Of a stretch of DNA of 64,000 nucleotides, positions 5,024 to 39,288 are shown piece after piece. Position numbers and translations under genes: made by a program. Each line of letters begins with the position of its first letter. Positions within the stretch are counted from its first letter, which is position 1. Source of the stretch: Psammoneis japonica (Eukaryota); the NCBI GenBank assembly GCA_008632985.1, contig QPGO01000016.1, forward strand, positions 1-64,000, in the 5' to 3' direction. The notes under the pieces were generated by a model that was not told where the DNA came from, did not search any database, and was given only the letters and a program-made list of their open reading frames with translations.

Positions 5024-5082
5024 AGCTCCCATGTCACAACGAAGAGAGTTGTTCTCACACACAAAGATCGTTGCCCCAGATA

Positions 5083-7709
5083 CTCTCTCCCAGCCGGGAG
5101 TGTCTCGTGCATTGGCGCCATTTGTTGCCACGCCATTCTGTGCTGTCTTGTGGATGCACCTCCCACCTTTCTTTGTTGTTTTGACTGCAGCCAGGCCTGT
5201 CTTGCCACACCTCGCAAATGGTGCCTTTTCATGAGGATCACATCCTCAGAGTTGTGGTCTGAGTTGCCATCAAGCTCACCGTGTGCACCAAAACTGGCAT
5301 GGCTTTTCCTCTCTGGTCCATCTGCTGCTCTTTTCCTCCTTGTTGGCCACATTGGGTCCTCTTTCACTTTCTTGTGGCTCATGGTTGTTGTGCTCCTCTC
5401 AGCATGTCCAATTTTTCTCCTTGGTTGTGTGCGGCACTCAGCTTCACATGTGGCCATCATTGTGTGCACCACGTTCTTGCACCGTCGGGAGTTGCCAGCT
5501 CTGTCTGACCAATGCTGGCCTCATTCACATGTGTTCACACCTGAAAGGTTCAGTGTCAAAGTGAAATTTTGCAACATGCTTTGGAGTTTTGCTGATTTTT
5601 CTGTGAATGCATGCCATCGCGACAACGAGTGCGTGGGGGAGATTCAAACTTGGATTTTGTTGTCATCATCAAGCAAAATGTGAGCACAGAAGTTGGGTGG
5701 GGCTGTGTTTGCAGAACTGATGTGACATTGGCCCTGCCTTGCATTCACTTCCCAAGCAACTTCACATGCTGGTCTGGCAGGATGGGAAACACCACGGAGC
5801 TGCAGAGGCACCCCCAAAGAGATGCCACAATGTGACAAAAATTGAAAACTCTCCACTCCCAACCCCATCTGTGCACAGTGAAATGGGAGCCAATTGCTTG
5901 GCACTGGTGATTCCAAGCATGGTCCTGCATCCCAATTGCTTCACCTGCTGGCAACCATTTTCATCATGGCAACATCACGAGTCTGTGTGTGGTTGTGGAC
6001 ATTGCATGTGCACCAGGCCATCTCCATGTGTTGCATCAACAGACTGGAGATTCTTCCACTGTGCCATGTGGTCATTGGAGTGCAGACAGCCAAGGCAGTG
6101 GCAGGACATTTGTTGGATGATTTGTGCAATGTGCAACTTGAACAACAGATCTCTGTTGGCTCTTGTGCAGTCACAGGCTTCCACAAATTTGACAGGGCCA
6201 GCCTCAAACACAATTGCCACTAAAAATGGTTTTCTCCTGCTTTGGCAGCTGGCACATTTGTGGTGGTGGCAGTCCCATGCTTCCAAATGTTGAAGATTTG
6301 ACTGGGCCACCCTCAGCAATCTTCCTTTCACCATGCATGGCTTCCACTGTGTGGCATGTTCCATGTGTCACATTCATCAAGAAGCACATTGGCGCCAATT
6401 TCTCATTCTTTTGCAGCACTTTTGATGGCTTTGGGTGCCATTTTGAGGCTCCTGCCATGCACAAGGCAGTGGCTTTTCAACTCACATTGTCGTGATCCTT
6501 GCCATGCCATCTGTGAACAACAAAGAAAACAATGATCAAACAAGCCACATTTCTTTGTCCCCACAAGGTTGACAATGCAACCTTGACCACCTGCTCAAGA
6601 ACACTGCCAACAAGGACCCCAACATGAGCTTTTTTGGACAAAGCTCCTCCTCCCAACAGAGTGCACACAGTTGGAAATCATCAACACAGAACACAGCAGT
6701 CAAGGTGCTTCAAGCAAAGTTTTTTGTTCCACAGCACTGGCTGCAATGGACAGAATGCCTCCTCTCATCATGCCAAGTTGCAGCCTGGTTGCAGCCACTC
6801 AAAAAGCAAACATTCTTTCTGGCGCTCTTTGTGGTGGCACTCTTTGTGCAGTTTTGAAGGGCACCAAATGTTGACAGAAGGTGGTGCTCATGTGTTGCCT
6901 TCAGCCAATGCAATCCAGGAAACCAAGAACTCCAGTTGAAGTTTTTTCCATGGCATGAGCTGCATTGGACAGAATGCTGCTTCTCACAGCACCAAATTGC
7001 AACCTGGCCACTGCTGTCAAAAAGGGAACACGACATGCCAAATGTCAACAGAAGACAGTTCCTGCCCTTTGTGATGACAATCTGGCAGCTCTCAATCTTT
7101 TGCTTTTTCCACATTGTCTGGCCACTCCATGCAGTTTGGATCTGAGGCTTGTGCGCATCTGATGCGACATTTTCTTGCACCCCATGTGCACCTGACAACA
7201 CAGCTTTGAAACTCAAGAGGGGACATTTTTCTCCAAACACAAACATTTGCTGCACACACCAGAGAACCTGCCAAATTGCATGGCTCAGGAACCCCGCCAC
7301 CCCAGGCTGGCTCTGGCACATGCTGTCCTTGCCCTGTCCACTTCAAGAAAAGAGAGATGTCAGTCAGAAAGCTCTGCCAGGCCACCAGGAAGAGAGAGAC
7401 AGTGGCTCTGTGCTTGCACGTCAGCTCAGAAAACCAAAATCTCCAACCAGAGTTTGTTTGACAACTGGCAAAATCATGTTGAGAATGGCATGGCCAGTGC
7501 TGCAGCTGCTGGTGCCAAGCGCTCGGACCAACCCTCTCAAAGCAGCGGCACAAGCTGCACCCCATGCTCCTGGTGCATGGCCGGCCACAGACCAAAGAGA
7601 AGGGGCACCACCACTCTCTCAGGTGTGGTCACTGTGAGAGGCATCTCATGATGATTCAGAGCAAAGCACGTCATGACAGTGCAGGCTGTTCATGAGCCAT
7701 TGCGGCGAT
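5083..7709. mobile_element. TpA/CpG-depleted island 1; decayed element, possibly PIF/Harbinger-like on the minus strand
   Basis: One TpA (6221) and about 30 CpG in about 2.6 kb. Minus-strand remnants WPDNVEKAK (about 7100-7125) and GVLGFLDCIG (about 6905-6935) resemble the DDE_Tnp_4 first-Asp region. The composition is certain; the family call is weak. Confidence 0.55.
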
Positions 7710-7841
7710 TAACGGTTGACGGTTTGTGCCTTTCGCCCTTGCTGCCGCTCTTGTTTAGCCCACTCGAGTCGCTCGAACAACACCGAATGATCGGGTTCCA
7801 CGCGCGATCACCAATTTCTTTTTCTGCATTTCACTATCGAA

Positions 7842-10337: not shown

Positions 10338-10897
10338 TAGGCGTCTGCTCACACGAGTGGTAGTAGTAGTAGTATTTTTTAGAAGAGAAAGGATCGATTG
10401 CTCGACCATGTTTATTTGAAAAGGAGGGCGAGTGCAAGAGTTTTGTTTACAGAGTTTTTTACGACCACGTCGTCGTAGATGTTATAATTATAAGAGATTA
10501 TTGTTGTTATTTCGAGAAAAATAGTCATCATTGTGCTTTCGTTTGTAAATATATAAACCTATACAAGACTTGATGGGGCCCCCTAATGATTGTTGCATTT
10601 CAACAGGATACAATGGTGCTGTCATTATTAGTTGCTCTCGAAGCTCCTACTTCGTACCCTCGAAGTCGTCTCGTTTCTGGCAAAAAGTGAGCGTGAAGAT
10701 CTTGGCGAAAAGTAAGCGAACATGAATTTATCTACAGACACAAATAAATGTATACGTGGTGAAATCTTTGCGATCTTTTGGTGTCACGTAGAAGCCCCGT
10801 ACGATTCTACGTTCGAATCCGGGATTGTCGCCAGCGACATCATCAACGCACATTCATCACGCACTTTCATTTTTCTGGGGCTTGTTTACATGGGCCA

Positions 10898-15040: not shown

Positions 15041-18000
15041 TCATGAATCAATAACGTTTGCACTCCTCTCGGCTACATGTCTCTTTAGTTCCTTGTATGG
15101 CATTTCGTTCCACCGTTTCTCTGGTCCGACCAAGTCACAGAGCGCGAACGAAGCAAGATGCTGTCTCAGCACCTTCTTGGACACAGACATAGTGTCCCTA
15201 TCTTCTTCGTATGAAAGATCTTCATCGAGAATTGAAATTTCCGAAGTACTCTTCATCACGGTAAGCTGAATGTGCTCATACCGATGAGGATTTACGGCGG
15301 CAAATGGCGAGGGCGAGGGCTGTGTGTATTTCAACTCAATGTCACCCACCATGCCTACGTCAGAGAGTTGCTGAAGGATCTGAAGGGCGGTGAAGCCCTG
15401 TGGATTCACCTGCATATCAGATGGTATCACTTTCTCCATACGAGCAGACACGTCGAAATCGATTCTCTTCTTCCGTTCTCTCTGTAGCGTCGATGGCTCG
15501 TCTACGGATTTCGAATCTTTTACCAACCTCACATTTTTCAAGCTTAGATCGATCGAAATTTTCTTTGTTTTTCCTTTCCTATCCTTCGCCATTTGATAGG
15601 CTTTCTTATATCCAACTTTCGAAATGGGAATATCACCAAGCACCGTCTCCAAGATTGATCCCATGTCGGTGTTCTTTCTCTTCTGCCTTTGATCTTGATG
15701 CGAGTTCTTTCCGTGCCGCTGCTTCCTACCAAGCATAGGAGTTGGCTCCGAAGTAGTAATAACACGACTCACTTGTAATCTACGATTCTGCTTCAACGTG
15801 ACAGCCTTTTCGAAAAGGGTAGAGGCGGTTGAAATGGATGGGTCAAAGCAGCTTTTGTCGCATGCATCACTGTCCAATAGTGGTCCCCAAGAAGGATACG
15901 GCGTCCCTTGCCGGTCCTTTCATCCTCATCCATGGGATCATCTCCTGAATCAATGGGCATGCCATTCATAGCTTCTATCCGTTCCAAGCACCTTTTTTCA
16001 AAACGCCTCAGGTCAAACATATTGTCTTCAGGATCCATACACTCTGCATAAATCTCTTCGACAGCATTGCTTTCTGCTAGCTGTCTATAAGGCTCGGGTA
16101 TAAGCTCGCTGACCTGCGATGGAAGAGCTGCAAGACAAGAGAGTCCATCGCTAACAGGCGGCGAATAGTGGTCGCCTAACAATTCACTAGGACCAACGGT
16201 GCGATTGTGATGCAGGGCTTCTCTGAAATACGCTACAATTTCCTTTGCAGTTGGCGACATTCGACGCCCATAGTTGTATGCATAATCCGTACAAACGCCA
16301 TCCTGATAAGTTTGCAGGTTCCAAAGAAGTCCAGCTAGGTAGCGGTCGCACTTTCCGCCTTTTGCTGACTGTATCTGTGGATAAAGAATTGCAAGTCTTT
16401 AGTGGCCGGTTGATCTCTAGCCCATTCCGACGTTCGCTCCAAACAAACTCACCTCCCATGCATAGCCGACACTGGAGATCTCACCCATATCCTGCAGGTC
16501 GTCGTCCTCATCTTCCATGGCTGATAAACTTAACCAATCCTCTCCCAGTATATCATCGAGGGCAAGATTTGCCAACTTGTGTCGTACGCTTTTCTTGCCA
16601 GCAAAAGGCAATTCATATTCGTAAAAATTGTCCGTCCCCTTTTCTCCAAGCGTTAAACGCAGTAGTTGTTTCTCGCAGGACGCATTTGCAATGTCCGTCT
16701 CCTCCTCCTCTTGGTCAAGCTCGGATACTTCCGACGCAAGCTCCTTTCCATTCCTGTCGCCAGGAAGCACCGTCCATTTGATGGGTCGAGGAATAAAACC
16801 TGACTCCCCCATGTTATTTAACTGGCTCAGTGGAGTTTCTCTGCCATCTCTTTCCGTATATCGCTCCGCCATTGTACCATTGAGTAAATTGTCGGGCGCC
16901 AGCTGAGCCATGTGTCGGAAAAATGCAATCGAAAAAGGAATGTTGAATTCGAGAGTGTCGGGATCGACCAAAAAAGGCTTGGCACCGCCATGACTGTTCG
17001 TATCATTTTCGTCGGACGAAAGCCATTGATGAAGGATTCGAAGATAGTTATGAAAAAGGTTGTTGAATCCTGCCGACCCTCTAAGTTTCGGTAGGTAATC
17101 ATTTCCATTCATAATGAGCAACAAGACAAGATCCGTCCGAACGCGCATCATGTCTTTTGAGTCCAGTTTGGGTAAGAACCTACTCAAGGCTCTTGTAGTC
17201 TCCCATAGGCTTATGGCAAGATACTGCTTGCTGCCATCAGGCAACAAGACAAAGACATTATGAGTAATGCTGGGTGGAATGACTAGTCCCTCCAAGACCA
17301 AATCACTGTCGCCACCCAGAATTGCAATCGATTCACTTGGCGAATCTTGTGCTGCAACAGCCAATCCAACAATTTCACTTCTCCTTCTCCCGGGACGGTC
17401 GATGGTGAAAAGTATATTCGAGTTCTAGAAATTGGGTTTTTTGGATTGGACAGCCGTTGCCACGCCCAATACAAGACGGCTTGATGCGCTCTCTCCATGA
17501 ATTCTGTACCCGGTGTAATGGCTAGAATCTTTGGAGCAGCAGCTAGTACACGTCTTTTCTTTGCTCTTGTTTTTGGAAAGAGAAGCAGAACCCCGTTCAA
17601 TGGCGAGAGACAACTGTTGTTTCTTCCATTCAGTACGAATAAGTGTGGAGTACCGCCTTCGTCGCTGAGTTGCAGCTTTGCAGCACTAGGAGGCCCGTCC
17701 ATTGCCAGAACTATGGATTTCTTCGCGACAGCCATGGAAAAGCACATATCCAATTCTTTCAGAAACATAACCAACGCGTGTCCATCGGAACGGGATCTTC
17801 TCAGTGCGACATGAAGCAATTGATTTACATCCAACAACATGATCAAAGCTCTCGTTGGCATCTTCAGAATACCGATTGAAGCTCAGAATTGCTTCTGGAA
17901 ACTGAGATTCAAACCATACACGAAAGCCCTTGATTCCCGATAGCGAAGTTGATGAAAGCTGTGAATGTACATGCGTTCGATGGGCGGGAGCAGCTGTGAA

Positions 18001-18129
18001 TGAGCATACCAGCTTGGTATGCAGGGCAGTGAAGCAAAAGACACCAAAGAAAACGAAAAGCCCCATCTCTAAAGGCTTCACCGCTATCCTTTGTCTCTTG
18101 GGTCGCCATACTGCAGTTGGCGACGCCAT
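15041..18129 (-). CDS. XRN-family 5'-3' exoribonuclease-like protein with a putative bipartite plastid presequence; one intron and several frameshifts
   Basis: Motifs GIKGFRVWF, LDVNQLLH, AMDGPPSAAKL, ITPGTEFM, VPGEGEVKL, GGDSDLVL and GNDYLPKL. Alternative start at 18066. Confidence 0.85.
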
Positions 18130-19303
18130 TTTATAGATCGTTTTGCCCTCTTCACACAAAGCTGACTAGCACTGTATGGATATCAATACGTTCATCGGCA
18201 CAACAAGCGATGAATAGCCGACGCGGCAGACGAAACCAGCATGCAGCCACTCCTATGCGTGCCGCGCAAACAAAATGCGCGAGAGCGCAGACGACTTCGT
18301 CGAAGTATTCAATATCTGATGTTTTAGACATATATATCATAAAATTACTTTGTACTCGATGGTGGTATGTTCGCGTAGAATTGTGTAAAAATTTATTTAT
18401 AGATTATACACTGGGAATGTTGTAATATCACATTTTTTTATTGAAAAGTATACAGCATTTTTATGTTCGTTATATGGACATACAACTTTGACTGTTGTAC
18501 AATAATATCGGCTCCGAGCGAGCACAGAGCACAGCGCACGAGGCACGACGTCGTCTCACCATGTTCAACTGATGATTGGTCGGCAAGAATGAGTTTTGAG
18601 TGAGGGCGAGCCGAGTCGGCAAACGGCAATCAAACCCGGCAAAACTTCAGAAAAATCCAACGGATATTTTTTTCCTCATGCCTGGCTGTACGTAGTACGT
18701 TTGGTACGGCGTCACACGTAAAGCACGAGCTCGAATTTAATGTTTTAGTAACCCGGAACGTTGCAATCGCTGCAATCGTTGCATTTGCACTTTTTTCCCC
18801 GTGTAAATAACACGTGTTTTCGTCAGGAGGTGGGGACATCGGGGGACATTTGGGGACACACCACCACGAGCTCTTTCGTGTAGAGCAGTACTGAGTTCTA
18901 CACGTGCACGACATTCGGCATTTTTCTTTTCACTGCCACCATGACAATTGGTTGATTTGCAACGCCGCTCTGCTTGTCTAACGGCAGAGTGGGTGCTTCG
19001 ACACCTACCCGTTTGGTTCAACTCTCCGCAGCCGTCGCGCTCCAACAACCACAGCTTTGGTACACCGAACAGTATTCGATGAACCCGAATGTCAGGACGC
19101 CCCAAAGTGGTGGCTACATAGAGCGCCGGGATCCGCTCGTGGTGTTGCTCGTCACCGCCGTGCCGACTCAGCAACACGGCGATACTGCGATCGTCATGGC
19201 GGTCCATGTCAGAAATCAGAAAAGCATGCGCGTACTGTAGTAGTACAAGGATATTATGACGTGTACCTCAACATCATGCCGACGCAGTCTCGTTGTCATC
19301 ACC

Positions 19304-23553: not shown

Positions 23554-24945
23554 CTAACTATTCGAGATGTTTTTGGGTGTAAACACTCCGACGTCTCTAA
23601 GCATTTCAGAGGCTTTTTGAACTCCATGCTCCTTCACAAATCCACTGAGCCATGGACGGATCGTATCATCCGTTCCAACCATTCCCTCGTCCTTTTGTTC
23701 AAAGTTCTACGCAAGAGTAAAAAGTGGCAAGTATTGAGAAACAAAAACGTCGACACAAAAGGGCGTCCGCAAAATAAGAAATGACTCAACTTGTCGTCCT
23801 TTCAATGTCGTTCCAAATCGTGCATCGTCTCGAAAGCTGTATGCTTCCCACGAACCACTGTAATGATTGATTCGAAAAATGGCATTCTTGTCGGCCGCAA
23901 GAAAGGGTCGTCGACAAAGAGGTAGAGGTCGATGCGCACTCACAGCTTGAGGCGGAATGTCGGAAACATTGACACGCGACACATCCACAAGGGTCTTTGC
24001 CAAGCCATTGTAAGGGTGGAGTTGTTCTGGTTTTGCGTGATGCCGCCAACGTAGAGTATCAAATCGTGTAGCATTGAATGCAGGAGGGACATGGGCGTCA
24101 CGAAGGGTCGGATCGCTCTCGATGGATCCATATCGTAAGCGAGGTACACTGATACAGGGCGATGCCAGAGTACTGTTTGATTGATTTACCCAAGCATTCA
24201 AGAAATGAATCAGCGAGGATGGCTCTTGCAAGGACGGATACAAGGTGGGGGCAGCAGAAGCTGCTTTCTGAGACTGATTCCCACTACTGGGTGGTTCATT
24301 GTAGAGCAAGAATTCATCGGAATCTTCCATGACCACCCAAGTTCGATTAGCTTTCTTCAGAGCAACTAAACATCTCGACATGAATGTCTTTTGACGACCT
24401 CTGTGCAAGCCTTTGCGTTGTTCATCCGTCAAGTTGTTCTTGAATTCCTCGGGAGAAACAAAGCGATGCGTCAGTTCGTCGGACCTCAAAAAGTCGTCAT
24501 CGGACCATTCCAGTATAGTCATGCCATAGTTACGCCATTGATTCAATATTCTCGAGGGTGATGTAACGCTCCGTGGATCTACAGCGACAATGAGATACCG
24601 TAACGGCAAGACATGATAATGATACGCGATCCATTCCACCAATCGGTGATTGTCGTCCATAATAAGGAGACACGCCGAGAACGAATCATCATCGTCTCCA
24701 CTCATCCTTGTAGTGCTATTACTTCCATTAGAAGATCTTCCCTCAAATGCTCTTGGAGGCTGAAATGACAGGAGATAGGATGCCTGGTGATCGAAAAAAC
24801 TAGTAGATCTCAGTGTCGCCTTCCAGACATTTGTGGGTATCATGATGCAACACGAAGCCAAGATCAACAGGAACAATCTGTTAAAACCGTTTCTTTTTGG
24901 CGCAGCAACAGTTGATTCTTTTGTTCTAGATTGCTTGTTTGACAT
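23554..24945 (-). CDS. Type II membrane GT-A fold glycosyltransferase (GT92/GT2-like, diatom-expanded family); 2 exons
   Basis: Motifs SACLLIMDDNHRLVEWIAYHY, DSDEF (DxD) and FRINHYSGSWE. Intron about 23707-23790; last exon DDTIRPWLSGFV. Confidence 0.8.
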
Positions 24946-25056
24946 GTTGCTGCTGCTCTCTTTTTTGAAAAAAAGACGACGTTAGAGTTTATTGCGTCGG
25001 CTTGTTGCGCTCATCTTCATCATTGCGACCGCGTGATGATGTACCGGTACTGTGTA

Positions 25057-25980
25057 TGAATGAACACTCTTTGTTTTCCGCCCGTTTGTCGTCCGGCTCG
25101 AAATTTTTGTCGTGCGTGCATGGGACAGCACCGGTGACATGCAGGGTCAATCAATGTTTGCTTTGTCCAGTTGCTCCAACAGCATCCTCTCCTGAAAATG
25201 CCCAAGTTGGAGCCATGCCCTCTGGGCTTCGTGCTTCCTTGGTGTGCTGGCATGCAGCGCCGCGAGGGGTGCTGCACGGTGTCTCACTGTGTTGCTCAGT
25301 GGATGTGCGCCGCAGCATGCTCACCATTTGTTGCAGAATGTTCAAGCGAGCACAGCCAGAAGTGCCCTCAAATTGGAGTGTGCATGAGAATGGCAGCCAA
25401 TGTTTTGCAAGCTGGCGTGCTCAATGCCAACCCTCCTGAAAACCTTCAAAAGTTGTGTGAGATTGAGGACAACACCTTGGCTGCAGCTTCCTGTGCCCCA
25501 CACTCCTCTTGGCTGCTGGTTTTTAAGATCCTCTGCAGGGGCCTCTTTGGGTGCTTTTGTTTTGCACCAGCCATGGTGTGGTCATTTCTGAACCCCTCCC
25601 AACACCGCCGGCAGCAGATTTGGCTGTGCAGCTCAAGCCAGCACACCAAGCATTGATGGGTGAGAACTTTGATGGCAGAGTGTAAAATGACAATCCTTTG
25701 CCTGCCAAGTTGGACAGGGTGCTCTGACCAAGTTGTCCCCATTGATCCCGGGAAGAAGCTGGAGGCTCGAGTGGCTGACGCACCCATTTGGAACAGAGCA
25801 AGCACCACATGCTGGTGGGATTGTCTCAGATTTGCGGGCACCACGAGCAATTGAACAGATCAATGTTTGCCAAGTGATGCCATTTTGGAGCTGCAGATTT
25901 TCTTCCCAACACCTGCGTTTCCCTCATTGCTCCTGGTTTGATTTGAATTTGTTTGGCCAGGCCAGCCAGCGCTGCTGCAG
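25057..25980. mobile_element. TpA/CpG-depleted island 2; decayed repeat of unknown family
   Basis: Only 2 TpA (25524, 25683) in about 920 bp. CpG is kept at the edges and reduced in the centre. Confidence 0.5.
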
Positions 25981-26173
25981 AGTAGAGCAGCGAGCAGAGC
26001 GAGCTGTCCACAGGTCAAGGAAGCACATGCGACCATGTCTGAATCAAGCGCGGCGGCCCCAACTATCTCCCGCCAACTCGTCGTCAAGGGATGACGGATG
26101 ACCGCGATCAGCGATGAGTGAAATGCGACGCTGACAATGATTTTAAAGCTCAGTCGAAGCATAAAACGATGCC

Positions 26174-29032: not shown

Positions 29033-29819
29033 GTTGTTGGGTTCCTACCGTTGCATCACACATGTTTTGTTTCTCGTAGTTTCAGCCTTCCTTCCAACGC
29101 TTCATCCTCTAAACTCAAGACCCACGTAGAAGCTACGAAATCGTCTGGTACAACAAATATTCCATTCAACCGGTTGAGTAGAATATTCAGATTCCATTAT
29201 TCCTCCTCCCCACGTAGGACAGGCGGAAATTTGATTTTCCCACTATCCCTCTTGTTTTCGCCATTTTTTGAGTATTTTAGAATTTGTTTTGCAAAATTAA
29301 CAAGATTTATTGAAAAGATCACAAACGCTACATTTTTCAGTTCACTTGTCCGTCGATTTTTTTAATTAAGGGACCTCGATGAAAAATTGAAATATTTCAA
29401 TCGTAGCCCGTGGTATCTTTTCTACGAAGGCGGATGCGCACGATGATGGTGCTGTCTTGTCCGCGAGTTCTGCGCATCATCGTGCAAACAACGCCGACAA
29501 TGGCCGAAATGCCGTTCATTCTCGAAAACTGAACGTGGGGGCTGGAAAATTTCGTCGTAAGTTTATCGATTTTGATATGAACAATGAACTTAGGCCTTGT
29601 GATGAAATTTGCCAGCCTCGATGTTCAATTTTCGAGAATGAACGGCATTTCGGCCATTGTCGTGTTGTTTCAAGATTTTTCCAGAATCGCCGCATAAATA
29701 CAGAAATCAAATCATGCTTTATTTTTACACTTTTTGCAATCATATGCTGAAAAAGAATCCAGAAAAGGCAAAAACAAAGGGGGTCAGTCGTCGCGATCTC
29801 ACCAAGCCTACGTACCGGA

Positions 29820-29908
29820 GGACTCAACCGGTCCCGCCGTCCGTGACTGAAATTTCACCACGGTGAAGCAGGAGAGTCGAATCATTCGATTGGACTCAAC
29901 CGGTCCCG
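29820..29908. repeat. 17-bp direct repeat GGACTCAACCGGTCCCG x2 (subterminal-repeat-like)
   Basis: Copies at 29820-29836 and 29892-29908. Confidence 0.7.
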
Positions 29909-31250
29909 ATTTTGCATCAAAAACGGCATGTTTTACTTTGATGCATCTCGCCATGGCATACATCGTGATGACGACGCGTTATGCAGGGGGGATCTTTTTC
30001 TACCATTGTTATTAAGAGGTTGATACATTGGTTTGGTTTCCTGGGGTGCTTTGGTTGCTGCACATGCTATAAACGGTTGCGTGCCTCGACTCGTGATTTG
30101 ACTGCTGCACGGTACGTGTAACACCTGAATGGTCCACAACGTTGCGCCGGTAAGTTCTTTCTGTGTTTTCTCATTTTATGCCGTTTATCTACTCACTAAA
30201 GATGTTGTTTGTGCTTTGTTACAGCTTCATAAGAGGATACATCGTCTCGTACGGTCGATTGTTGCACCTGCAATATTGGCATCTTTTTCACGTCGTCGTC
30301 ATCACAAAAGCGTATCCGTTTGGGAGCCTTATGCCTCATCCCACTCTACATCCTTTGGTGTACCTATTATGTATATTAATATGGATTTGTGACGCGCTTG
30401 ATATCCTTCTTGGGGGCTTGGTCGGCGCATAATCATGGCATGTCGTTTTTCGGCCGTCGCAATATTTGGAAAGTGCATGCCGTGGGAACAAAACGACGCA
30501 ATGGAGCCTGGAGGACATTTACGACATTGGCATTTGTCAGACAGTCTTATCATAGTCCACAAAAGGTAATCCTATGAGTATAATGTGATTGATTGGCTTT
30601 TAGACTCGTTTTGACGAAATTCTCATACCTCACGAGCCTTTTTTTGTGCGTCTCGTTCATGCGTGCAGGTATCTGGTCCTTTTTGACCCTTTCCACCTAC
30701 CCTTCAACCGCATTATCATCATTATCTAAGACATGATATTGTCCGCGTTATTTTGGGAGATCTTTGTGGTGTAACTACGACTCTAGGCTTTGCAATGGGT
30801 AAAATGGGGAGGTTGATGCTTGTGTTGGCGGGCTCATCGCCTCCTCTTGGATGCAAGGATCCCACGAACCGCTGGTGGTACTTGGGAGCATAAAAATTGG
30901 GAAGGCGACCCAGCTCTCCCTCTAAAAGGTGCACTAGTGAGTATACTGTGACATGTAACCCCAATGGATTGTTATTGTGTACGTTGTTCCACTCATGTTT
31001 TCATTTTGCCTGTCATTTTCCAGTATGACTATCGTTGGCTGTTAAAGCTTGCAGTGGCATTTCCAGGCCCATATTCTACATGATAGATATCTTTTGATAT
31101 TCTTTACTCATATGGGGAAATCAGATCCTGGAGCTCTCAGTTCCTAGTCGGATCTAGTAGAGATGTATGACTATTCGATGAAATGTGGGATGGAGTGTAG
31201 GCGTAAAAGCTGTTGCTTCTGGACGGTACGTACCGTATGCTTACTGTAGA

Positions 31251-31275
31251 GTGTGTGTGTGTGTGTGTGTGTGTG
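31251..31275. repeat. (GT)12 microsatellite
   Basis: Direct read. Confidence 0.95.
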
Positions 31276-31474
31276 CGTACTTCACCATTTCGAATGATGA
31301 CTAACCGATCTACCATTCTAAGACACAGGAAAGATATCTCTCTACTAGCAGTAGGGAGCACGGTGCCGGCTGTGCGCGAGAAGCCATATAGTAATGAAGA
31401 CGGTACCGGCCTAAGCGCAGAAGTCTCCGCTATTGTAGGATGAACTCTCTAGTAGAGAGTGCCACTACTTTTGA

Positions 31475-32041
31475 TTAGAACTTGGTGCAAAAGGTAAGTG
31501 TGATTGAGAAGTTGTGTATTATATATCCCCTTTTAGCACTGAGACTAACGCAGTTCATTGTTCTTTTTGACCCGTATAGATAGCTTCGCACGGCGAGGGA
31601 ATTGGACGGACGTTTCGGACCGGCGGCTCTTGATTCTTGCGATCGGTCCATGCTCATATTCTCTTGTATTCGCTTCTGGCGGGCTTTTTCACTATTCAAA
31701 CGATTGTGGACGTACTGAACGTTGGGGAGTTGAGCGGCGCGAGCTGCTGTCACGGTCGCTCCTTTTATCGTCGCTTGCGAAATGGAAAGGCTATTTTCGA
31801 CAACTTTGAGCTTGCTAACGACTTCTTTCAACTTCCGCTGTGATACTTTCTTCCCACTATTCAATGTGTTCTGGACCTCTTTCAACACGTTTTGCTGGTG
31901 TTGCATGTCCGAAGCGACAGCAGAACTGTCGAGAAGACCGTCGAATGCATTGTCCATTTGGGATTTTCGCATCGACGCAGCGGCATTTTCTTCTGTATCC
32001 TTGAGCGATGAAGCAGCAGATAAAGTATATAGATGACTCAT
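31475..32041 (-). CDS. Hypothetical coiled-coil protein, possibly element-associated or spliced
   Basis: 188-aa ATG ORF with protein-like composition; no recognised motif. Confidence 0.4.
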   Translation of the reverse strand: MSHLYTLSAASSLKDTEENAAASMRKSQMDNAFDGLLDSSAVASDMQHQQNVLKEVQNTLNSGKKVSQRKLKEVVSKLKVVENSLSISQATIKGATVTAARAAQLPNVQYVHNRLNSEKARQKRIQENMSMDRSQESRAAGPKRPSNSLAVRSYLYGSKRTMNCVSLSAKRGYIIHNFSITLTFCTKF

Positions 32042-32252
32042 GGTTTGTCACTGTTCTTTATAGTGTTTATTGGAGCTGCGACTGCGTTTGAAACAATAGC
32101 GGTACGGTCATTGCGGCGTTGGCGTTGACCCGTCGCGTCGGAGGGAATTCAAATCTTGAACGCGTCATCCTTCGCGCGCGGCGGGAACGTTTGAGGCAAC
32201 GGGAACGTTTGAGGCCGCCGGTAGTTTTGTTTCTCCACAAAAACGTGGTGTG

Positions 32253-32290
32253 GTTTTTGTTCACGAGTACCGGTACTCGTGAACAAAAAC
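32253..32290. repeat. 38-bp perfect palindrome GTTTTTGTTCACGAGTACCGGTACTCGTGAACAAAAAC
   Basis: 19-bp arms with no spacer, about 100 bp left of island 3. Confidence 0.95.
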
Positions 32291-32388
32291 GAAAGTCTTA
32301 GTCGAGCGAGTCAAAGTGCAGTCGAATGGGTCAAATGCGTTTTTGTTTTTGTTTTTGTGCGACGATGAGGGAGGGGCTTAGCACTTTA

Positions 32389-35300
32389 CTGTTCGTCCAC
32401 TGTGCTTCCGCATCAGTCGACAACAGCTGGGGATCTGCAATTGGCAATTTGTCGAAGAACAGGCTCAAGGTGGTGCAGGTGCAAAAGTGGGCCAGATTCC
32501 ATGCAAATGGAAACTTGGTGTGTTTTCCACACAAATTGCCAAAGCCACCTCGCCAACTTGAACCCTCTCCTCCCGGATGATGGAAACCTGAACATTTCAA
32601 ATGACAGAGTGTCCAGACTGCTCAATTGCACTCTCCTTGACATGTTTCCATGCATTTTTGGAGACATGCGCCAAATCCAATCAGAAAGGTGCCAAAATTG
32701 CGACGCTCGAGTTTGTCAGAGCTGTGGCAAATGACGGTGTTGCCCATGTGCTCAAATGCTGTCACGCCAGCTGGAGATGTTCAATGTCGAGAGTCCAAAG
32801 CCAAAGCACAAAGCACAGCTTGCAAAGCAATCTGTTGCTGACACTGCACTGGTGACAACAACAACAAGCACAAGCCACACCAGCGGCACTGGGTTGAAGA
32901 CAAACATGCATGTTGACTGAAGCTGCGAACTGCAGAGCTCACACATGGAATTCTGCAGGCAAATGTCACAAAAAGTCCCGCCTGGGGCTGGAGCACATCA
33001 TCTGCACTCTGCATTTGTGACAGAGCTGGGCAAAAACTTGAGATGCTGTGAACAGCAACATCTGAGCTTGTTCACTCAAAACAATCAACAATCAACTTGA
33101 CAGCGATTGCTGCTCAGTGCTGCTGGCACCCCTTCTGCCACAGCATCGCAAAGCCAACTCGTGTTCCTTCTCCAGGAGAGCATCTTGTGAGAATGAGAAA
33201 AAGCTGGGCATGCCAGAGATTCAGCATGCTGTTCAACCATGTTCTGCAGAGGGGTCATGGGGTGGGGTGCCTTGTCTCCCAGCACTGCAGCTTTGATGCA
33301 GCACACATGGCACCACACACACAACACCATGCAGAGAGTGATTGTGGTTGTTGACAAAACCTCTGTGTTGCTGTGTGCGCCACCTTTTGAACAAAATCAC
33401 TCCCTCTGTGGTGCTGAAGCCATTGTGGGGTGGTGTGTCTTTTCAGCAGCCAGGTTTTCAAAGAATGTGCAAATGGGCAGTGCAGCATTTTCAGCTGCCC
33501 TGACTTGTCTCAAAGAAGAGGGTGCAGGGGTGCATTGCTCTCAAGCAAAAACAAGCACAGCAGCTGCTGTCTGCTGTGCATGCATGCACAACATCATGCA
33601 GCCAACAACCTGCACACATCACAGTGAGATGTCACGCCACATCAATGTCAGATCTTGTGTTGCAACACTGACACAGGTCCACAGCATCCTCAACTCAAGC
33701 AAGGCTGGTGGCCAGTGTGCCCATGCTGCAGCGGAACTTTGACCCAGCAAAAACCCAAACATTTGTGGCTGTGTCTTTTTTGTGACAAAGCATGCTGAGT
33801 GATGGCTCCTGACAGCCCATGGAGCACTTCAACGGCTGTCCCCTGTGGCCCATGCAGCTCTCTCTCTCCTTCAGGCTGTGCTCACGAGGTTGCACCTGCT
33901 GCAAACAACACACACTGAGCACTTTGTCTGTTCTCCCCACTGTGTGTTTGCACATGCCAGACAGCAGCACATGCCAACATGTTTGTGCCAGCCATCCACA
34001 TCAGTGCACCATGATGTGCCTCTGTGCACAGGACACATTGAGGCCATCACCATGGACAAAGCGCTTTGTCCAATCACAACAGACACAACATTGTGCAACT
34101 TTGAAACTTGATGACATTTTGTCAAGTGAGGTGTTCAAGCAAACCTTGGCTGGCCACCTTTGAAATGAAAGTTGGCCGGGCCAGCTTTGGAGTGAAAGTT
34201 GTCAGGCCTGGCTGACCAACTTTGGAGTGAAAGTCAGGCGAGCCAATGGATGAGAAAAGGAATCTCAGTGGCCTTGACCCAGGTTCAAGAAAAACACAAT
34301 TCTCTTTGTTTTTTTTTAACCTGAAATGCCTCAACAGAGCTTTCTGTGCAGGCACATGCTTGCTGACAAGCTCTGAGCAGCCAAAGAGCTTTGCCCCATG
34401 AGATGACAACAAAAGGCAACACCGCTGCCACTTGCTCAGTTGTCCATGATGACAATGTGGTCAACCAACCCCAACAATCAACAACAATGGAAAGATCTGG
34501 CATCTGCACATTGCACCATGAAGAGGCATTTTGTGATTGATTTCCAAGACAGCACTCAGGGCAAAATCGCTCATCAGGGTGGGCCAAAATGAACAGAAAG
34601 CTTTCTGTTGCTGCATTCTTTCACAGCAAACTCATGCTCACACTTGTTGATTTGGTTGCAACATGACCCTCTGAGAGACCAGAATGTGCTGCATCATGGT
34701 GAACCCCTCTTTTGGCTGTCGCGTTGCTTGCCCAAGCTTCATTTCCTGGCATTGAAGAAAAGCACATGGTTGAAATCATGCAGAAAAACAATTTTTGCTG
34801 GACTCAACAGGAAGAAACTTTGTCTTAGAATCACCCGCTGTTGCAACCATCCACATCATCAGAAAGCACTTTTTCTTTGGCTTTTCAGCCATGTGATTTT
34901 CTGAAAAAGTTGAAAAAAGTCAACAAACCTCCTTTTCTGATTCGCTGGTTCAGATCCAACTTCAAGACAGGACAAGCACCAGCTCCTTCCTCAGCCACTG
35001 CTTGTGTGTCTTCTTCATGGCATGTGTGTGGCATGGATGGTGTGACTCAGTTGTCAAGAGTCTTGTGGCTGATGTCCTTGCACAAAATGCACCTCATTGA
35101 ATTGTCAAACTCTTTCTGCTGCAATGACCCCCCATCATGGACAAACTGCTGCAGCTCTTGTCTTGGTGGCCTGCCCAGGCACTTTTCCCACTTGCTTGCC
35201 CTTCTCTTGGTCTTTGCACTCACTGCACAATGCGGGCAGATGACTGCAATTTAACTCATCTTGCTCAGCAAATTTGGCCTCTGGGTTTGACGAGCCCGCT

Positions 35301-37460
35301 GTTTCAACACAAGTCCAAATGACCAATGATGACTCACATCTGATGTTGAAGAAGCACGCTTGCAGCCTGCAAGAAACGGAGTCAAGAAATCTCAAACAAA
35401 AGCACCCCAGCTGCAGACAGCTCTTCTTCCTTTCCTCCTTCACCTTCTAAGACCCAGTGCTCAAAATGCGAAACTGTGAAAAAAGGCATGCTCATGAATG
35501 ACAACTTGTTGCACCTCTGCAAAGATGTCAACAAAGTCATCACAAACCTCTCAAAATGACAAAGATTGTGCATGATGGCAAAGACACTCAGCCTGTGGCA
35601 AGGGCACCACAGACTCCTCCCGCCATGGCACCCACCTGTGGATGCATCATCTGCAGATGCAGGGACAGCCAAAAACGCTCAAATTGTCAAATTGTGCAAG
35701 CACTGGATCTGGGGACATGCCATGCATTCAAAAACACACCCGGGGATTTGCAAGTGCAGCCCCACACACAGAGATTGGCGAGCACTCCTTGAGACATGAG
35801 GGAGCCTGCTGCATGATCAAGGAAGATTGCACCATCAAGCAGAAACTCCTTGATGGGTTGTCTCTGTCTTTGAGCACAGATGGCACATCATGGTGCTGGC
35901 TGCCAGCCATCTCTGCTTTGTGGCATTTGCTGACAGAGCTGAACAAGAAGTCAACACTGGTGTGTCTGAGCTCCACTCCAAACAGCGGCACATGCTTTTC
36001 CCCTGAAACAATGAAAAAACAACAAGTGGCTGCAAATGTTGGCTGCAACCACTGTGACCTCAATGTGTCCTGTGCACTGTGCACAGAGCAGGCACATGCT
36101 GTGCAAGGGCCAATGGCACAAACATGCTGGCGCGCGTCTGGCACGCACCAACACACATGCAGTGGGTGAAACAGACAATGTGTTCAGTGTGCATTTTGCA
36201 CACAGATGCAACCTCATAAGAAGAGCCATAGACTGCAAAGAGCAGATGATGTTGAAGTGTCCTGTGGACTGCCAGAAGCTGTCTCTCAGCACAACTTGCT
36301 GTGAAAAAGACATGGTCACAAATGTTTGAGTCTTTCAGTCAGAGTGCCTTTCCAGCATGAGCGCTGACCAACCTTGAGTCAAGGATGCTGCACACCTGCT
36401 GCTCCATTGCAACACAAGATTTTTCATCCCACTGTGTTGTGTGCCATCATTGTTGGCTCCATGTTTTGTGTGCATCATGCACAGCAGCTGCTGTTTTTGT
36501 TTTTGCTTCAGAGCAATCATGTGCCACCCCTCTCTTCTTTGAGACAAAACAAAGCAGCAGCCAGCAGCTGAAAATGTTGCACCACTTGTGCACATGTTTG
36601 AAACTAAGCTGCTCAAGAAACAGACCACACAAGGCTGCTGCGCCACAGGTGGAGGGTGACTTTGTTTGAAAGGCAGCACATGCAGCAATTTCGAGGAGGT
36701 TTTGTCAGAAATCACAGTTGCCAGACATGTTGTGTGTGGTGCCATGTGTGTCACATTAAAACCACAGTGCCAGGAAACAAGGCAACCTGCCACAAATTCC
36801 TTTGCAGAACATGTGTCAACAGTGCACTCTGAACCACTGTAATGTGCCCCGCTGCCAGCTTGTTTTGACCATGAGAAAGCAAAGTGCAGGTGCTCCTCAC
36901 CATGGACAAAGTGCTGCCAATCAAAACAAATGCAACACTGTGCAGCACTGTGCAGCTTTGAGACTTGATGACATTTTGTCAAGTGACATGTTGTCCACAC
37001 TTTTGTTTTGACAAAAAGCAAGCATTCTTCAAAAATGATTTTTTGTGCCATCCAAGGAACAGGGAAAGTTGCTTGGAAGGTTGGCGCAACAAGATGGCAA
37101 AAAACAAACACAGCAATGCTGTGTTTTGGTCAAAACTCAACAGCCACTTGATGTTTGTTGTTTGTCATCATCATTGCTGGAGCTTTGTCAATGGAATGCT
37201 TGGCGCTCTTTCCATGTTCAAGAGCGTCAGCCAAAAATTGGATCCACATCAAGGCCCTTGCAAAGCCAACACAGATCACTGCACCAGATTTGCTCAATTT
37301 CAAAGTCAACATCTTGATCATCAGTTTGAGTTCACATCTGCCAATTGCTTCAGACAATCGCCATGTGAGCAGGGTCTCAGGCATTTGTGCACCATGAACG
37401 TTGATGGCCCCACCTGTCTCAGAAAGGCTGTTGAAGAGCCAAGGACGGCAGGGCAAATTT
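32389..37460. mobile_element. TpA/CpG-depleted island 3; nested or rearranged decayed repeats
   Basis: About 8 TpA in about 5.07 kb; contains diverged internal inverted and direct duplications. Confidence 0.65.
33200..36990. repeat. Diverged inverted repeat (about 33200-34050 versus 36050-36850) plus direct repeat (34046-34130 versus 36897-36990)
   Basis: CACACATGGCACCACACACA and GTGCACAGGACACATTGAGG are shared in inverted orientation. ACTTGATGACATTTTGTCAAGTGA is identical in direct orientation. Confidence 0.8.
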
Positions 37461-37714
37461 TACCAAAAATGTGTGTGCCAAACTAATTCCATTTAGGCGC
37501 TAAAGATTCAATTTGATGTGGCAACCCCATGCAGGTCATTCCGACTCACTGCAGCATCTAAAACACTCCAAGACTTGCCGTGTTGTAAATTCATGCTTCT
37601 CGGATGCCCTGGCCATGACTACATCAATATAAAATGATTTGTCTACAAAATCATTCTCCACGTGACACCAAAGAGAGGATCCAGTGACGGTGCTTTCTTC
37701 CACTTGGCGGCTAC

Positions 37715-38962
37715 TCATGTCGATGTTTCTGAAATGTTCATCATTTTATGGACTTTCTTGATGAGTTCTCCGCCACCAAGCTCTGGAGTATAAGAGAAGT
37801 ACTTTTTGATTGTTTCTTTACCATGCGCCAGAATGGGCTGTTTCAGGATTGCGTCGTATTCTTCCTTGTTCGACTCAAGTTGTCGAACACGAGACAGTGC
37901 TGGCTCTGGGTTGTCTTTGTTGTAGTAGATGAACGCCTCCTTGTTGAAGACATCAAAAATCTCTTCCGTACCGTACCAAATTGGCACACATCCTGCTAGA
38001 AAAGCATTGAGAATTTTCTCCGTTATATACCCGGATTTAAGCCTGTTCTCCATGACAAGACAAAATCGGTAGCCTGCGAAACTCTCCTTGTTATTCCCCC
38101 AATTTGTATCATACACTGGACTCCCTGGCGGCGGCGCCTGCCACAGGGTTTGATTAATCATTCTGCAACAAGAACCCACACAATCCACGACAGCAATCTC
38201 TGTAGCCAGCCTCGTGAGCGCTGTCTGTCGAAAATCTACACAGTTTCCAACGGCATAAATCAAAAAACGTTCTCGCGTATTGACCGGCTTTTTGTCGGGA
38301 TCCATCAGTTTGGGCCACCATTCCGGTCCATATTCTTGTACAGTCATTTGTAGTGGCAAATAGTGAATGGTCCGATCCGTTATTGAGTCTGGGTAATACC
38401 CCAAAAAGTAAAGATTTGCACTCGATTGTCCCTGCCACAAGTGTCTTGATTCTCCGTTGCGCGATAAGACCTTGCCTGGAAAGGTTGGAACCCATGCAAA
38501 AAACTCCTGCTGGTCTTTCCAAACGCCCTCACAAGCCGGATCGTGTCGTTCGCTCGCAATCAAGACATCGTTCGGTGACGCTGTTGTAATGTTTGGAGGA
38601 CCCGTCTCTTTTGATAAGGCAACATATGTGTGGTTGGGAAACAGGATTCGCGTCGTGTTTATCTGACTTTCCCATACCCAGCCGCAGAGATACAGTCTCG
38701 GAGCAAATACCGGCTTTTCTTCTGGGGTTGTTGTTGATACGTTCGATTCTTGATTTTCTTGAGGATTGCTTGCGTTTACGAGTCCGCTCGCTGCATCATG
38801 TTGATGTACCGGTAGCGTCCTCTTGGTCGTGGTGTTTATAATTTCCTCCACCAGAGGAGTAGGCAAAACGCTTTCTTTGCTGCTTGCGAGCCATAGGATC
38901 ATCAACACCAAGTGCAAGCTTAGTACCGCAAACAAAACGATTCCAATCCATTTGCGAAACAT
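37715..38962 (-). CDS. Alpha-1,3/4-fucosyltransferase (GT10)
   Basis: GT10 motif YRFCLVMENRLKSGYITEKILNAFLAGCVPIWYG; N-terminal TM anchor. Confidence 0.92.
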   Translation of the reverse strand: MFRKWIGIVLFAVLSLHLVLMILWLASSKESVLPTPLVEEIINTTTKRTLPVHQHDAASGLVNASNPQENQESNVSTTTPEEKPVFAPRLYLCGWVWESQINTTRILFPNHTYVALSKETGPPNITTASPNDVLIASERHDPACEGVWKDQQEFFAWVPTFPGKVLSRNGESRHLWQGQSSANLYFLGYYPDSITDRTIHYLPLQMTVQEYGPEWWPKLMDPDKKPVNTRERFLIYAVGNCVDFRQTALTRLATEIAVVDCVGSCCRMINQTLWQAPPPGSPVYDTNWGNNKESFAGYRFCLVMENRLKSGYITEKILNAFLAGCVPIWYGTEEIFDVFNKEAFIYYNKDNPEPALSRVRQLESNKEEYDAILKQPILAHGKETIKKYFSYTPELGGGELIKKVHKMMNISETST

Positions 38963-39164
38963 TCTATCTCTGACAGCGATGTTTACCAAGTCTTTTCAAT
39001 AGAGTTCAGAGTCATACTGTAGTAGCAGCATGCAGGATCATGGATCATGCGCCATGCCCAATACCGGTACGGACCGCGCTGCAGTCGGCATAGTCGGCGG
39101 AATTCATTACCGCGCGTTTCTGATGCGCATTGTTTATGCCGAGTAGGCGGCTCATCCACGACTC

Positions 39165-39288
39165 AAAGTACGCAAAATGGTAAAGAAAGTACGCAAAATG
39201 GTAAGAAAGTACACAAAATGGTAAGAAAGTACACAGAATGGTAAGAAAGTACACAGAATGGTAAGAAAGTACACAGAATGGTAAGAAA
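39165..39288. repeat. 20-bp minisatellite AAAGTACRCARAATGGTAAG x6
   Basis: Head-to-tail copies with no spacers, in the divergent intergenic region between GT10 and the sulfotransferase. Confidence 0.95.

What the first reader, a model, noticed from the sequence alone, without database searches (positions are those of the whole stretch)
32389..37460. 5-kb TpA/CpG-depleted island whose internal duplicates differ by TG-versus-CA swaps
Seen: about 8 TpA in about 5.07 kb. The inverted copies (about 33200-34050 and 36050-36850) repeatedly differ as CA versus TG (CACTGCAG versus CACTGTGG; GATGCAGC versus AATGTGAC) and once as TG versus TA (TTTGAT versus TTTAAT). Inference: each copy independently resolved an ancestral palindromic TA or CG on either strand, which gives an internal test of the mutational process.
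Basis: partly seen in the sequence, partly recalled or inferred. Interest (0 to 1): 0.8.

Follow-up and report, generated by a model that had tools for sequence, protein, structure and literature searches.

The report
TpA- and CpG-erased DNA island
A 5-kb non-coding stretch between ordinary genes of a microbial eukaryote has had nearly every TA and most CG turned into CA or TG, which looks like the end product of a TpA-targeted hypermutation so far reported only in a 2026 preprint on one alga.

Summary
Window 32389-37460 has 9 TpA (about 337 expected from base composition, o/e 0.03) and 58 CpG (o/e 0.20). CpA and TpG are nearly doubled, and the edges are sharp. Two more such islands lie at 5082-7710 and 25056-25983.

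The inverted copies are real (33202-34046 and 36055-36853). CA-versus-TG swaps are strongly enriched between them: 20 of 206 CA/TG sites against 8 of 529 other sites, with 0 of 5000 local permutations reaching 20. The result is stable under MAFFT realignment.

Single transitions at these pyrimidine-purine (Y-R) steps are 5-7 times too rare. Swaps occur at about the neutral transition rate. This fits mutation rather than selection.

The total of Y-R steps is unchanged, so TA and CG were converted by transitions.

An independent contig of reads differs from the island at two sites, both residual ones: CG>TG and TA>TG.

The closest known case is TpA>TpG/CpA hypermutation of silent viral insertions in Bigelowiella natans (bioRxiv 10.64898/2026.01.13.699255). 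This window is probably from another organism, and its islands also lose CpG.

The enzyme, the origin of the island and the ancestral states at swap sites remain unresolved.

The parts
32389..37460 (.). Island 1: TpA-free, CpG-poor, CpA/TpG-rich non-coding DNA. It lies between the start of ORF 31475-32041(-) and the stop of the fucosyltransferase-like ORF 37715-38989(-).
   Evidence: TA 9, CG 58, CA 636, TG 576. Edges from TA positions 32387 and 37461. rho_TpA 0.00-0.28 and rho_CpA+TpG 1.56-2.11 in five consecutive 1-kb windows, 33001-38000. No Pfam family above cut-off in 12+28 ORFs. No Rfam family. No period-3 signal.
33202..34046 (+). Arm 1 of the old inverted duplication (TA 0, CG 5).
36055..36853 (-). 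Arm 2 of the inverted duplication (TA 5, CG 8). It holds 5 of the island's 9 TA.
34047..34135 (+). Segment B, copy 1. It follows arm 1 directly and is repeated in direct orientation after arm 2, so arm and B are inverted relative to each other in one copy.
   Evidence: 7 transitions and 3 transversions over 86 aligned columns. 98% identical in purine/pyrimidine coding over 53 columns.
36897..36992 (+). Segment B, copy 2.
34145..34247 (+). Short local duplication, 34145-34185 / 34207-34247.
   Evidence: 95% identical in purine/pyrimidine coding. 9 transitions, 2 transversions, 1 CA/TG swap.
34943..34944 (.). Residual CG in the window that the read-derived contig has as TG.
36217..36218 (.). Residual TA in the window that the read-derived contig has as TG.
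32450..33337 (.). Left part of the island, which probably belongs to a multi-copy family (approximate limits).
   Evidence: Summed contig depth is 874 and 2961 in bins 32004-32670 and 32671-33337, and 2289 at position 32567, against about 64 for single copy. The other copies could not be read.
5082..7710 (.). Island 2, same composition and no sequence similarity to island 1. It holds an internal direct repeat, 6698-6806 / 6921-7025, with 22 transitions, 9 transversions and 4 swaps.
25056..25983 (.). Island 3, between two divergently oriented genes. TA is depleted (rho 0.11) and CG only about halved (rho 0.46).
   Evidence: Reads have CG where the window has TG at 25810 and 25976.

Best explanation
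The island is non-coding, probably silenced relic DNA with old internal duplications, lying in the nuclear genome of a microbial eukaryote. A dinucleotide-specific mutational process has acted on it, and probably still does. The two self-complementary pyrimidine-purine steps are removed by transitions: TpA>CpA or TpG, and CpG>TpG or CpA. Which strand is hit at each site is random.

Shown:
- The composition and the sharp edges.
- The total number of Y-R steps is unchanged.
- The swap excess, and the deficit of single changes at Y-R steps.

Inferred:
- The TpA part is the same kind of process as the TpA-targeted A>G/T>C hypermutation measured in Bigelowiella natans. That preprint proposes, but does not prove, an ADAT2-like adenine deaminase acting on DNA.
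- The CpG part is either deamination of methylated cytosine in silenced DNA or cytosine deamination by the same system.
- The target was foreign or selfish DNA.
For: 1. TA o/e 0.03 and CG o/e 0.20, with CA and TG nearly doubled.
2. Y-R steps make up 0.2497 of dinucleotides in the islands, against 0.2398 (coding-like) and 0.2465 (intergenic-like) elsewhere. TA and CG were therefore replaced by CA/TG, not lost by transversion.
3. Simulated TA+CG>CA/TG conversion of ordinary window DNA raises the 4-mer correlation with the islands from 0.47-0.62 to 0.92-0.93. Converting CG alone gives 0.69-0.83. Part of this gain is built in.
4. Between the arms, 143 Y-R steps are concordant, 20 are swapped and 8 differ singly. 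Swaps run at 0.12-0.16 per step, close to the free-site transition divergence of 0.17. Single changes run at 0.05-0.06 against about 0.34 expected. Strong purifying selection against TA/CG would make swaps rare, about 0.03.
5. Isolated C/T differences sit before a pyrimidine in 39 of 47 cases, before G in 6 and before A in 2.
6. A 6057-base contig of run X1, at single-copy depth 63.6, covers 32965-39020 with 2 substitutions. Both fall on residual sites (CG>TG at 34943, TA>TG at 36218). Such bases are 104 of 4496 there, so P is about 5e-4.
7. CA and TG are not strand-clustered (runs test z = -1.0, 0.24, 0.25), as expected for single-site hits on either strand.
8. Precedent in the preprint: 230 of 231 new mutations in two viral insertions of B. 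natans are A>G/T>C, all on TpA. The authors also report 124 TpA-depleted/CpA+TpG-enriched clusters. By their criteria this window holds two clusters, 5001-8000 and 33001-38000, plus one single window.
Against: - No new mutation was observed here. Two read-versus-assembly differences are a small sample. They could be assembly errors or strain differences, and their direction is unknown.
- In island 3 the two differences run the other way: the window has TG and the reads have CG.
- No viral or transposon domain was found in any island ORF, so a foreign origin is assumed.
- A neighbouring multi-copy element at 29.3-31.4 kb has normal TA and CG content. Repetition alone is therefore not the trigger.
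- The preprint never mentions CpG (0 occurrences), so the CpG loss has no direct precedent in that system.
- TA depletion to 0.03 is far stronger than in the active B. natans NCLDV (giant-virus) insertion (rho 0.45).
- The mass-balance argument assumes an ancestor composed like the rest of the window.
Confidence: 0.65

Rival explanations
1. Selection rather than mutation. The island is kept free of TA and CG because these dinucleotides are harmful there. Examples: a long transcript that must avoid UpA- or CpG-directed RNA decay, or DNA that must avoid a TA-specific nuclease or TA-targeting transposons.
For: TA and CG are self-complementary, so avoidance in a single transcript would look symmetric on both strands (inference). 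The edges are sharp and sit just beyond the promoter-like regions of neighbouring genes. TA o/e 0.03 is more extreme than any mutational bias I know of (recalled).
Against: Swaps accumulate at about the neutral transition rate (0.12-0.16 against 0.17), which strong selection against the intermediate would prevent. The copies have diverged freely (76% identity, 81 transversions, many indels). No ORF family, RNA family or period-3 signal was found. Three islands share no sequence.
Confidence: 0.1
2. Imported composition. The island is an insertion of foreign or mobile DNA that already lacked TA and CG when it arrived, and nothing happens to it in place.
For: The edges are sharp. The left 0.9 kb seems to be multi-copy. 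The 5-base word TTTAC stands at both edges, 32385-32389 and 37459-37463 (read); chance could give this.
Against: No terminal repeats, no element genes and no relatives were found. The swap pattern arose after the internal duplication, that is, within this lineage of sequence. Residual TA/CG sites differ between assembly and reads. Three unrelated islands share the composition, which points to the host process rather than a common source.
Confidence: 0.12
3. Ordinary decay of methylated CpG explains the island, and the lack of TA is an unrelated property of the ancestral sequence.
For: CpG o/e 0.20 with a TpG/CpA excess is the classical signature of methylated DNA (established knowledge; listing).
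Against: The CA+TG gain (about 0.09 per dinucleotide) is about twice the CG loss (0.04-0.05). The missing half equals the TA loss. TA loss is complete even where CG loss is partial: the left 0.9 kb has TA 0 and CG 19, and island 3 has rho_TA 0.11 and rho_CG 0.46. CG-only conversion reproduces the k-mer spectrum less well.
Confidence: 0.05
4. Assembly or base-calling artefact.
For: The window differs from the reads at two residual sites.
Against: A contig built from the reads of run X1 reproduces 32965-39020 at single-copy depth with only 2 substitutions and 1 gap. That run may be the source of the assembly, so this is support from reads rather than from an independent sample.
Confidence: 0.02

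Closest known systems
TpA-targeted hypermutation of integrated viral DNA in Bigelowiella natans (Mettrop et al., bioRxiv 10.64898/2026.01.13.699255). I read the abstract, Results, Discussion and the Methods section 'Dinucleotide analysis'. The supplements were not available.
   Same: TpA is turned into TpG or CpA by A>G/T>C transitions. The result is kb-scale clusters of TpA-depleted, CpA+TpG-enriched DNA, mostly without annotation. This window meets their window criteria.
   Different: Here the depletion is near total (rho 0.00-0.07 in the core, against 0.45 for their active NCLDV, giant-virus, region). CpG is also lost about five-fold; they do not mention CpG. No viral or transposon gene is recognisable. 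No mutation was watched happening. The organism is probably another one: the best relative of the nucleoside transporter is 42-43% identical, the exact proteins are absent from the collection, and there are many uninterrupted ORFs longer than 1 kb. The last point rests on my recollection that B. natans genes are intron-rich.
Repeat-induced point mutation (RIP) of fungi
   Same: It is a dinucleotide-specific, transition-only, regional mutagenesis of unwanted DNA that runs to saturation and leaves sharp compositional islands.
   Different: RIP makes C>T, mostly at CpA, and so enriches TpA (established knowledge; abstracts listed). Here TpA is erased and CpA/TpG is the end state. A neighbouring multi-copy element is untouched.
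CpG decay by deamination of 5-methylcytosine in methylated repeats
   Same: CpG>TpG/CpA, with o/e about 0.2.
   Different: It cannot remove TpA. Methylation of this locus is untested.
ADAR-type A-to-I hyperediting of double-stranded RNA from inverted repeats, and APOBEC editing of retroelements
   Same: These are deaminase-made transitions. ADAR favours U before the edited A, as the preprint's Discussion says. The island holds an inverted repeat.
   Different: Editing of RNA changes DNA only through reverse transcription. It hits many A contexts and is strand-coordinated. Here AA, CA and GA are kept, CA and TG are not strand-clustered, and the depletion extends far beyond the repeat.

Membership tests
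TpA-hypermutated clusters of the B. natans type | [quoted passage not shown] | tested here: met
   33001-38000 (5 windows) and 5001-8000 (3 windows) pass. 25001-26000 passes alone (criteria).
TpA-hypermutated clusters of the B. natans type | New mutations are almost only A>G/T>C, and all fall on TpA | tested here: inconclusive
   No mutation-accumulation data. One TA>TG and one CG>TG difference between window and reads. Two TA-versus-CA/TG pairs between the arms. Swap statistics fit this but do not separate TA from CG.
TpA-hypermutated clusters of the B. natans type | The target is of viral, transposon or other foreign origin | tested here: inconclusive
   Pfam scans of 76 ORF entries gave nothing above cut-off: 18 (12 in island 1, 4 in island 2, 1 in island 3, 1 at the window start) and 58. 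Two island ORFs found no homologue. A third found 1 hit at E 5e-4, to an unrelated tandem-repeat protein. The left 0.9 kb looks multi-copy.
TpA-hypermutated clusters of the B. natans type | Transcriptional silence of the strongly mutating region | not testable with these tools
   No RNA run was listed.
TpA-hypermutated clusters of the B. natans type | The host encodes an ADAT2-like deaminase with the residues linked to DNA editing (a hypothesis of the preprint) | not testable with these tools
   No genome is held for this window.
Fungal RIP | C>T at CpA in duplicated DNA, giving a TpA excess and a CpA/TpG deficit | tested here: not met
   The direction is the opposite: TpA o/e 0.03, CpA 1.80, TpG 2.04.
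Methylation-driven CpG decay | CpG deficit matched by an equal TpG+CpA excess | tested here: not met
   The CG deficit is present (o/e 0.20), but the CA+TG excess is about twice the CG loss. This process can be only part of the explanation.
Methylation-driven CpG decay | Cytosine methylation at the locus | not testable with these tools
   No methylation data.
ADAR-like hyperediting footprint | Strand-coordinated runs of A>G in several A contexts, confined to double-stranded RNA-forming repeats | tested here: not met
   Runs test z -1.0. AA is kept at 462. The depletion covers 5 kb while the arms cover 1.6 kb.

The most novel reading that the evidence does not exclude
This organism, probably a stramenopile-like alga unrelated to Bigelowiella, runs a RIP-like editing defence that erases both self-complementary pyrimidine-purine dinucleotides in sharply bounded kb-scale domains. 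TpA would go by adenine deamination and CpG by cytosine deamination, possibly through one dual-specificity DNA deaminase. The process runs until only CA/TG steps are left. If so, TpA-directed DNA editing is an old and widespread eukaryotic genome defence, and islands like these are its fossils, findable in any assembly.
Probability: 0.3. Interest if true: 0.85.

Novelty: new member of a known kind. Interest (0 to 1): 0.62.

Why it matters
TpA-directed hypermutation of DNA has been reported once, in one chlorarachniophyte, in a 2026 preprint. I found no other report in nine full-text searches.

A second genome carrying the saturated footprint would have several consequences:
- It would show that the process is not a peculiarity of one species.
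- It gives a simple way to find further cases: kb-scale windows with rho_TpA near 0 and rho_CpA+TpG near 2.
- It raises the question whether CpG loss belongs to the same system.
- The internal duplicates give a purely sequence-based test, comparing the swap rate with the free-site transition rate. That test separates mutation from selection and can be applied to any such island.

Tried and rejected
- Whole genome of the window: none is held. Other genomic copies and deaminase genes could not be sought.
- Other copies within the window: blastn of the island, self-blast of the whole window and blast in purine/pyrimidine coding (best null score 61.9) found only the internal repeats.
- Protein-level relatives of island ORFs: none for 33197-33742 or 32369-32734. 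For 36335-37129(-) there was one hit, E 5.2e-4, to an unrelated tandem-repeat protein.
It was replaced by stop-to-stop ORFs, which gave nothing above cut-off. The weakest leads were DUF6830 at 16.5 bits and Hfx_Cass5 at 17.1 bits, both below cut-off.
- Rfam over the window: 0 matches.
- Coding relic: no period-3 signal, even in purine/pyrimidine coding.
- Relatives' DNA: 29 metagenome loci around nucleoside-transporter homologues (110,402 bases) have no TA-free run longer than 267 bases. They are mostly genic and short, so this says little.
- Sequencing runs: one holder (X1, possibly the source) and no RNA holder listed. Expression is therefore untested.
- Guessing TA or CG ancestry from flanking bases: uninformative.
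- Transposon insertion: no terminal or long terminal repeats. Only a 5-base TTTAC at both edges, which chance could give.
- Organism: the Atlas look-ups gave no usable taxon, and exact look-up of six window proteins found none. The nearest named homologues of one gene are diatoms at 35-36%.
- Earlier findings of this scan: nothing on this genome or on look-alike stretches. The word searches returned only an opposite case (CA/TG-free zones in phage terminal repeats) and an unrelated purine tract.
Full report
**1. The observation**

Window 32389-37460 (5072 bases) holds 9 TA and 58 CG. Base composition predicts 337 and 295, so o/e is 0.03 and 0.20. CA (636, o/e 1.80) and TG (576, o/e 2.04) are nearly doubled. 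The other dinucleotides stay close to their values in the rest of the window, where TA o/e is 0.58 and CG 0.96.

The edges are sharp. The last outside TA is at 32387 and the next one at 37461, and flanking DNA has 15-40 TA per 500 bases.

The same composition occurs at 5082-7710 (1 TA) and 25056-25983.

A TA-free stretch at 1-424 has normal CG content. It reads like the coding part of an ORF, so I do not count it as an island.

**2. The duplicates**

- blastn finds 33202-34046 against 36853-36055 (inverted, 67% over 879 columns).
- It also finds 34047-34135 against 36897-36992 (direct, 76%). So in one copy the long segment is inverted relative to the short one.
- A global alignment has 769 aligned columns: 585 identical, 103 transitions and 81 transversions.

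**3. The swap test**

- Of 63 adjacent double differences, 20 are CA<->TG.
- Double transitions occur at 20 of 206 CA/TG sites and at 8 of 529 other dinucleotide sites: odds ratio 7.0, P 1.4e-6.
- A permutation that keeps substitution frequencies within 60-column blocks gives a mean of 4.7 swaps and a maximum of 13. None of 5000 reach 20.
- CA and TG are so common here that misaligned segments would give chance CA-over-TG pairs, so I checked two further ways.
  - A MAFFT alignment gives 27 of 208 against 16 of 540, P 1.3e-6.
  - Among double differences anchored by at least two identical columns on each side, 10 of 18 (pairwise) or 10 of 17 (MAFFT) are CA<->TG. No other type occurs more than once.
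- The smaller repeats show the same bias. The island-2 repeat has 22 transitions, 9 transversions and 4 swaps. Segment B has 7 and 3. The short duplication at 34145/34207 has 9 transitions, 2 transversions and 1 swap.

**4. Mutation or selection**

A transition is free where it cannot make or destroy TA or CG, that is, at a pyrimidine before a pyrimidine or a purine after a purine. At such sites the arms differ at 0.17 per site.

At Y-R steps, single transitions would be expected at about 0.34 per step. They are seen at 0.05-0.06. Swaps are seen at 0.12-0.16, against 0.03 expected for two independent hits.

Isolated C/T differences stand before a pyrimidine in 39 of 47 cases.

This is what one expects if TA and CG are short-lived states that a second transition resolves, half the time back and half the time onward. 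If selection simply removed TA- and CG-bearing variants, swaps would be rare rather than running near the neutral rate.

The numbers do not tell whether the unstable TA/CG stood in the ancestor at the time of duplication (predicted swap share about 0.20) or arose later by ordinary transitions (predicted about 0.17). Both readings are the same process.

**5. What was converted**

- Y-R steps make up 0.2497 of dinucleotides in the three islands, 0.2398 in coding-like DNA and 0.2465 in intergenic-like DNA of the window. TA and CG have therefore been replaced by CA/TG, which only transitions do.
- The CA+TG gain (about 0.09) is about twice the CG loss (0.04-0.05). The remainder equals the TA loss.
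- Converting TA (97%) and CG (80%) at random to CA or TG in ordinary window DNA raises the 4-mer correlation with the islands from 0.47-0.62 to 0.92-0.93. CG alone gives 0.69-0.83. Part of this gain is built in, and the argument assumes an ordinary ancestor.
- TA loss is complete even where CG loss is partial. The left 0.9 kb of island 1 has TA 0 and CG 19. Island 3 has rho_TA 0.11 and rho_CG 0.46.
- CA and TG follow each other without strand clustering (z = -1.0, 0.24, 0.25).

**6. Reads**

One public run (X1, coded, possibly the source of the assembly) holds 98% of the island's sampled words. No RNA run was listed.

Its contigs cover the island at depth 63.6. Neighbouring unique contigs stand at 54-116. 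One contig of 6057 bases spans 32965-39020 with 2 substitutions and 1 gap. The two substitutions are CG>TG at 34943 and TA>TG at 36218. Residual TA/CG bases are 104 of the 4496 island bases covered, so P is about 5e-4.

In island 3 the reads have CG where the window has TG, at 25810 and 25976. In the nucleoside-transporter gene next to it, one TA/CA difference occurs at 26778.

So the sequence is real. The few differences seen concentrate on TA/CG<->CA/TG changes. Their direction, and whether they are strain differences or assembly errors, is unknown.

Summed depth of 400-2960 over 29.3-33.3 kb shows multi-copy DNA. It includes the left 0.9 kb of the island and a neighbouring element at 29.3-31.4 kb with normal TA and CG content. 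I could not read the other copies.

**7. What the island is not**

- Pfam scans of 76 ORF entries (18, 58) gave no family above cut-off.
- No Rfam family.
- No period-3 signal.
- No protein relatives.
- No terminal repeats.
- No similarity among the three islands, or to the rest of the window, even in purine/pyrimidine coding.

**8. Context**

The surrounding genes are ordinary eukaryotic nuclear genes, some with introns. They include:
- a nucleoside transporter;
- fucosyltransferase-like, sulfotransferase and ion-channel genes;
- XRN, PCMT, an aminotransferase, and CRAL/TRIO and WW domain proteins.

The nearest named relatives of the transporter are diatoms at 35-36%. The best unnamed relatives reach 42-43%. 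No genome is held, and six window proteins are not in the protein collection.

Island 1 begins 348 bases beyond the start of ORF 31475-32041(-). It ends 255 bases beyond the stop of ORF 37715-38989(-).

**9. Comparison with what is known**

Of nine full-text searches, six found nothing relevant. Searches found one relevant paper, the preprint 10.64898/2026.01.13.699255. I read its abstract, Results, Discussion and one Methods section.

What it reports for mutation-accumulation lines of Bigelowiella natans:
- Two silent viral insertions mutate about 1000 times faster than the rest of the genome.
- 230 of 231 mutations there are A>G or T>C, and all fall on TpA.
- The genome holds 124 clusters of TpA-depleted, CpA+TpG-enriched 1-kb windows, mostly unannotated.
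- The authors propose an ADAT2-like DNA adenine deaminase.

By their thresholds this window has two clusters and one further window.

Differences from that system:
- Depletion here is near total.
- CpG is lost as well. The preprint never mentions CpG, and its cluster table is in supplements I could not open.
- No foreign gene is recognisable.
- The organism is probably a different one.

That last point rests on the absence of any close protein match. It also rests on the many uninterrupted ORFs longer than 1 kb, set against my recollection that B. natans genes are intron-rich. If the window were from B. natans after all, the island would simply be one of the published clusters.

Fungal RIP works the opposite way, since it makes TpA. 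CpG decay explains only half of the change. ADAR-like editing does not fit the context specificity or the lack of strand clustering.

**10. Verdict**

The island is best read as the saturated footprint of TpA-directed hypermutation plus CpG loss, in a second organism. The mechanism (deaminase, methylation, trigger) is inferred and not shown.

Noticed in passing
window 25041-25050, 32267-32276, 39061-39070: The palindrome GTACCGGTAC occurs exactly twice and once more with one mismatch. In all, 5 matches at up to 1 mismatch against 0.42 expected. These three sites lie 96, 226 and 72 bases upstream of the start of a minus-strand ORF (23707-24945, 31475-32041, 37715-38989), so the motif may be a promoter element. 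At 32253-32290 it sits at the centre of a perfect 38-base palindrome.
   Followed up: partly
window 29336-31336: Summed read-contig depth is 1400-2400 against about 64 for single copy. This is a high-copy element with normal TA and CG content and no Pfam family, directly beside the island. It contains a 185-base imperfect palindrome at 29486-29670.
   Followed up: partly
window 31475-32041 (-): An ORF of 188 aa without any Pfam family lies in DNA with about six-fold depth (bin depth 402), so it probably belongs to a small gene family or to the neighbouring repeat.
   Followed up: no
window 8635-10320: A 1-kb direct duplication (87% identical) lies inside a run of ORFs without Pfam families. 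It holds 66-base units repeated at 9224-9353 and 9852-9981.
   Followed up: no
window 39165-39288: A 20-base unit is repeated 6.2 times (97% matches) between two divergently oriented genes.
   Followed up: no
window 10778-14714 (+) and 15041-18159 (-): A multi-domain ion-channel gene and an XRN-like exonuclease gene are each split over several overlapping or adjacent ORFs. This shows short introns in this genome.
   Followed up: no
window 26778: Inside the nucleoside-transporter ORF the window has TA where the reads have CA. TA<->CA differences therefore also occur outside the islands.
   Followed up: no
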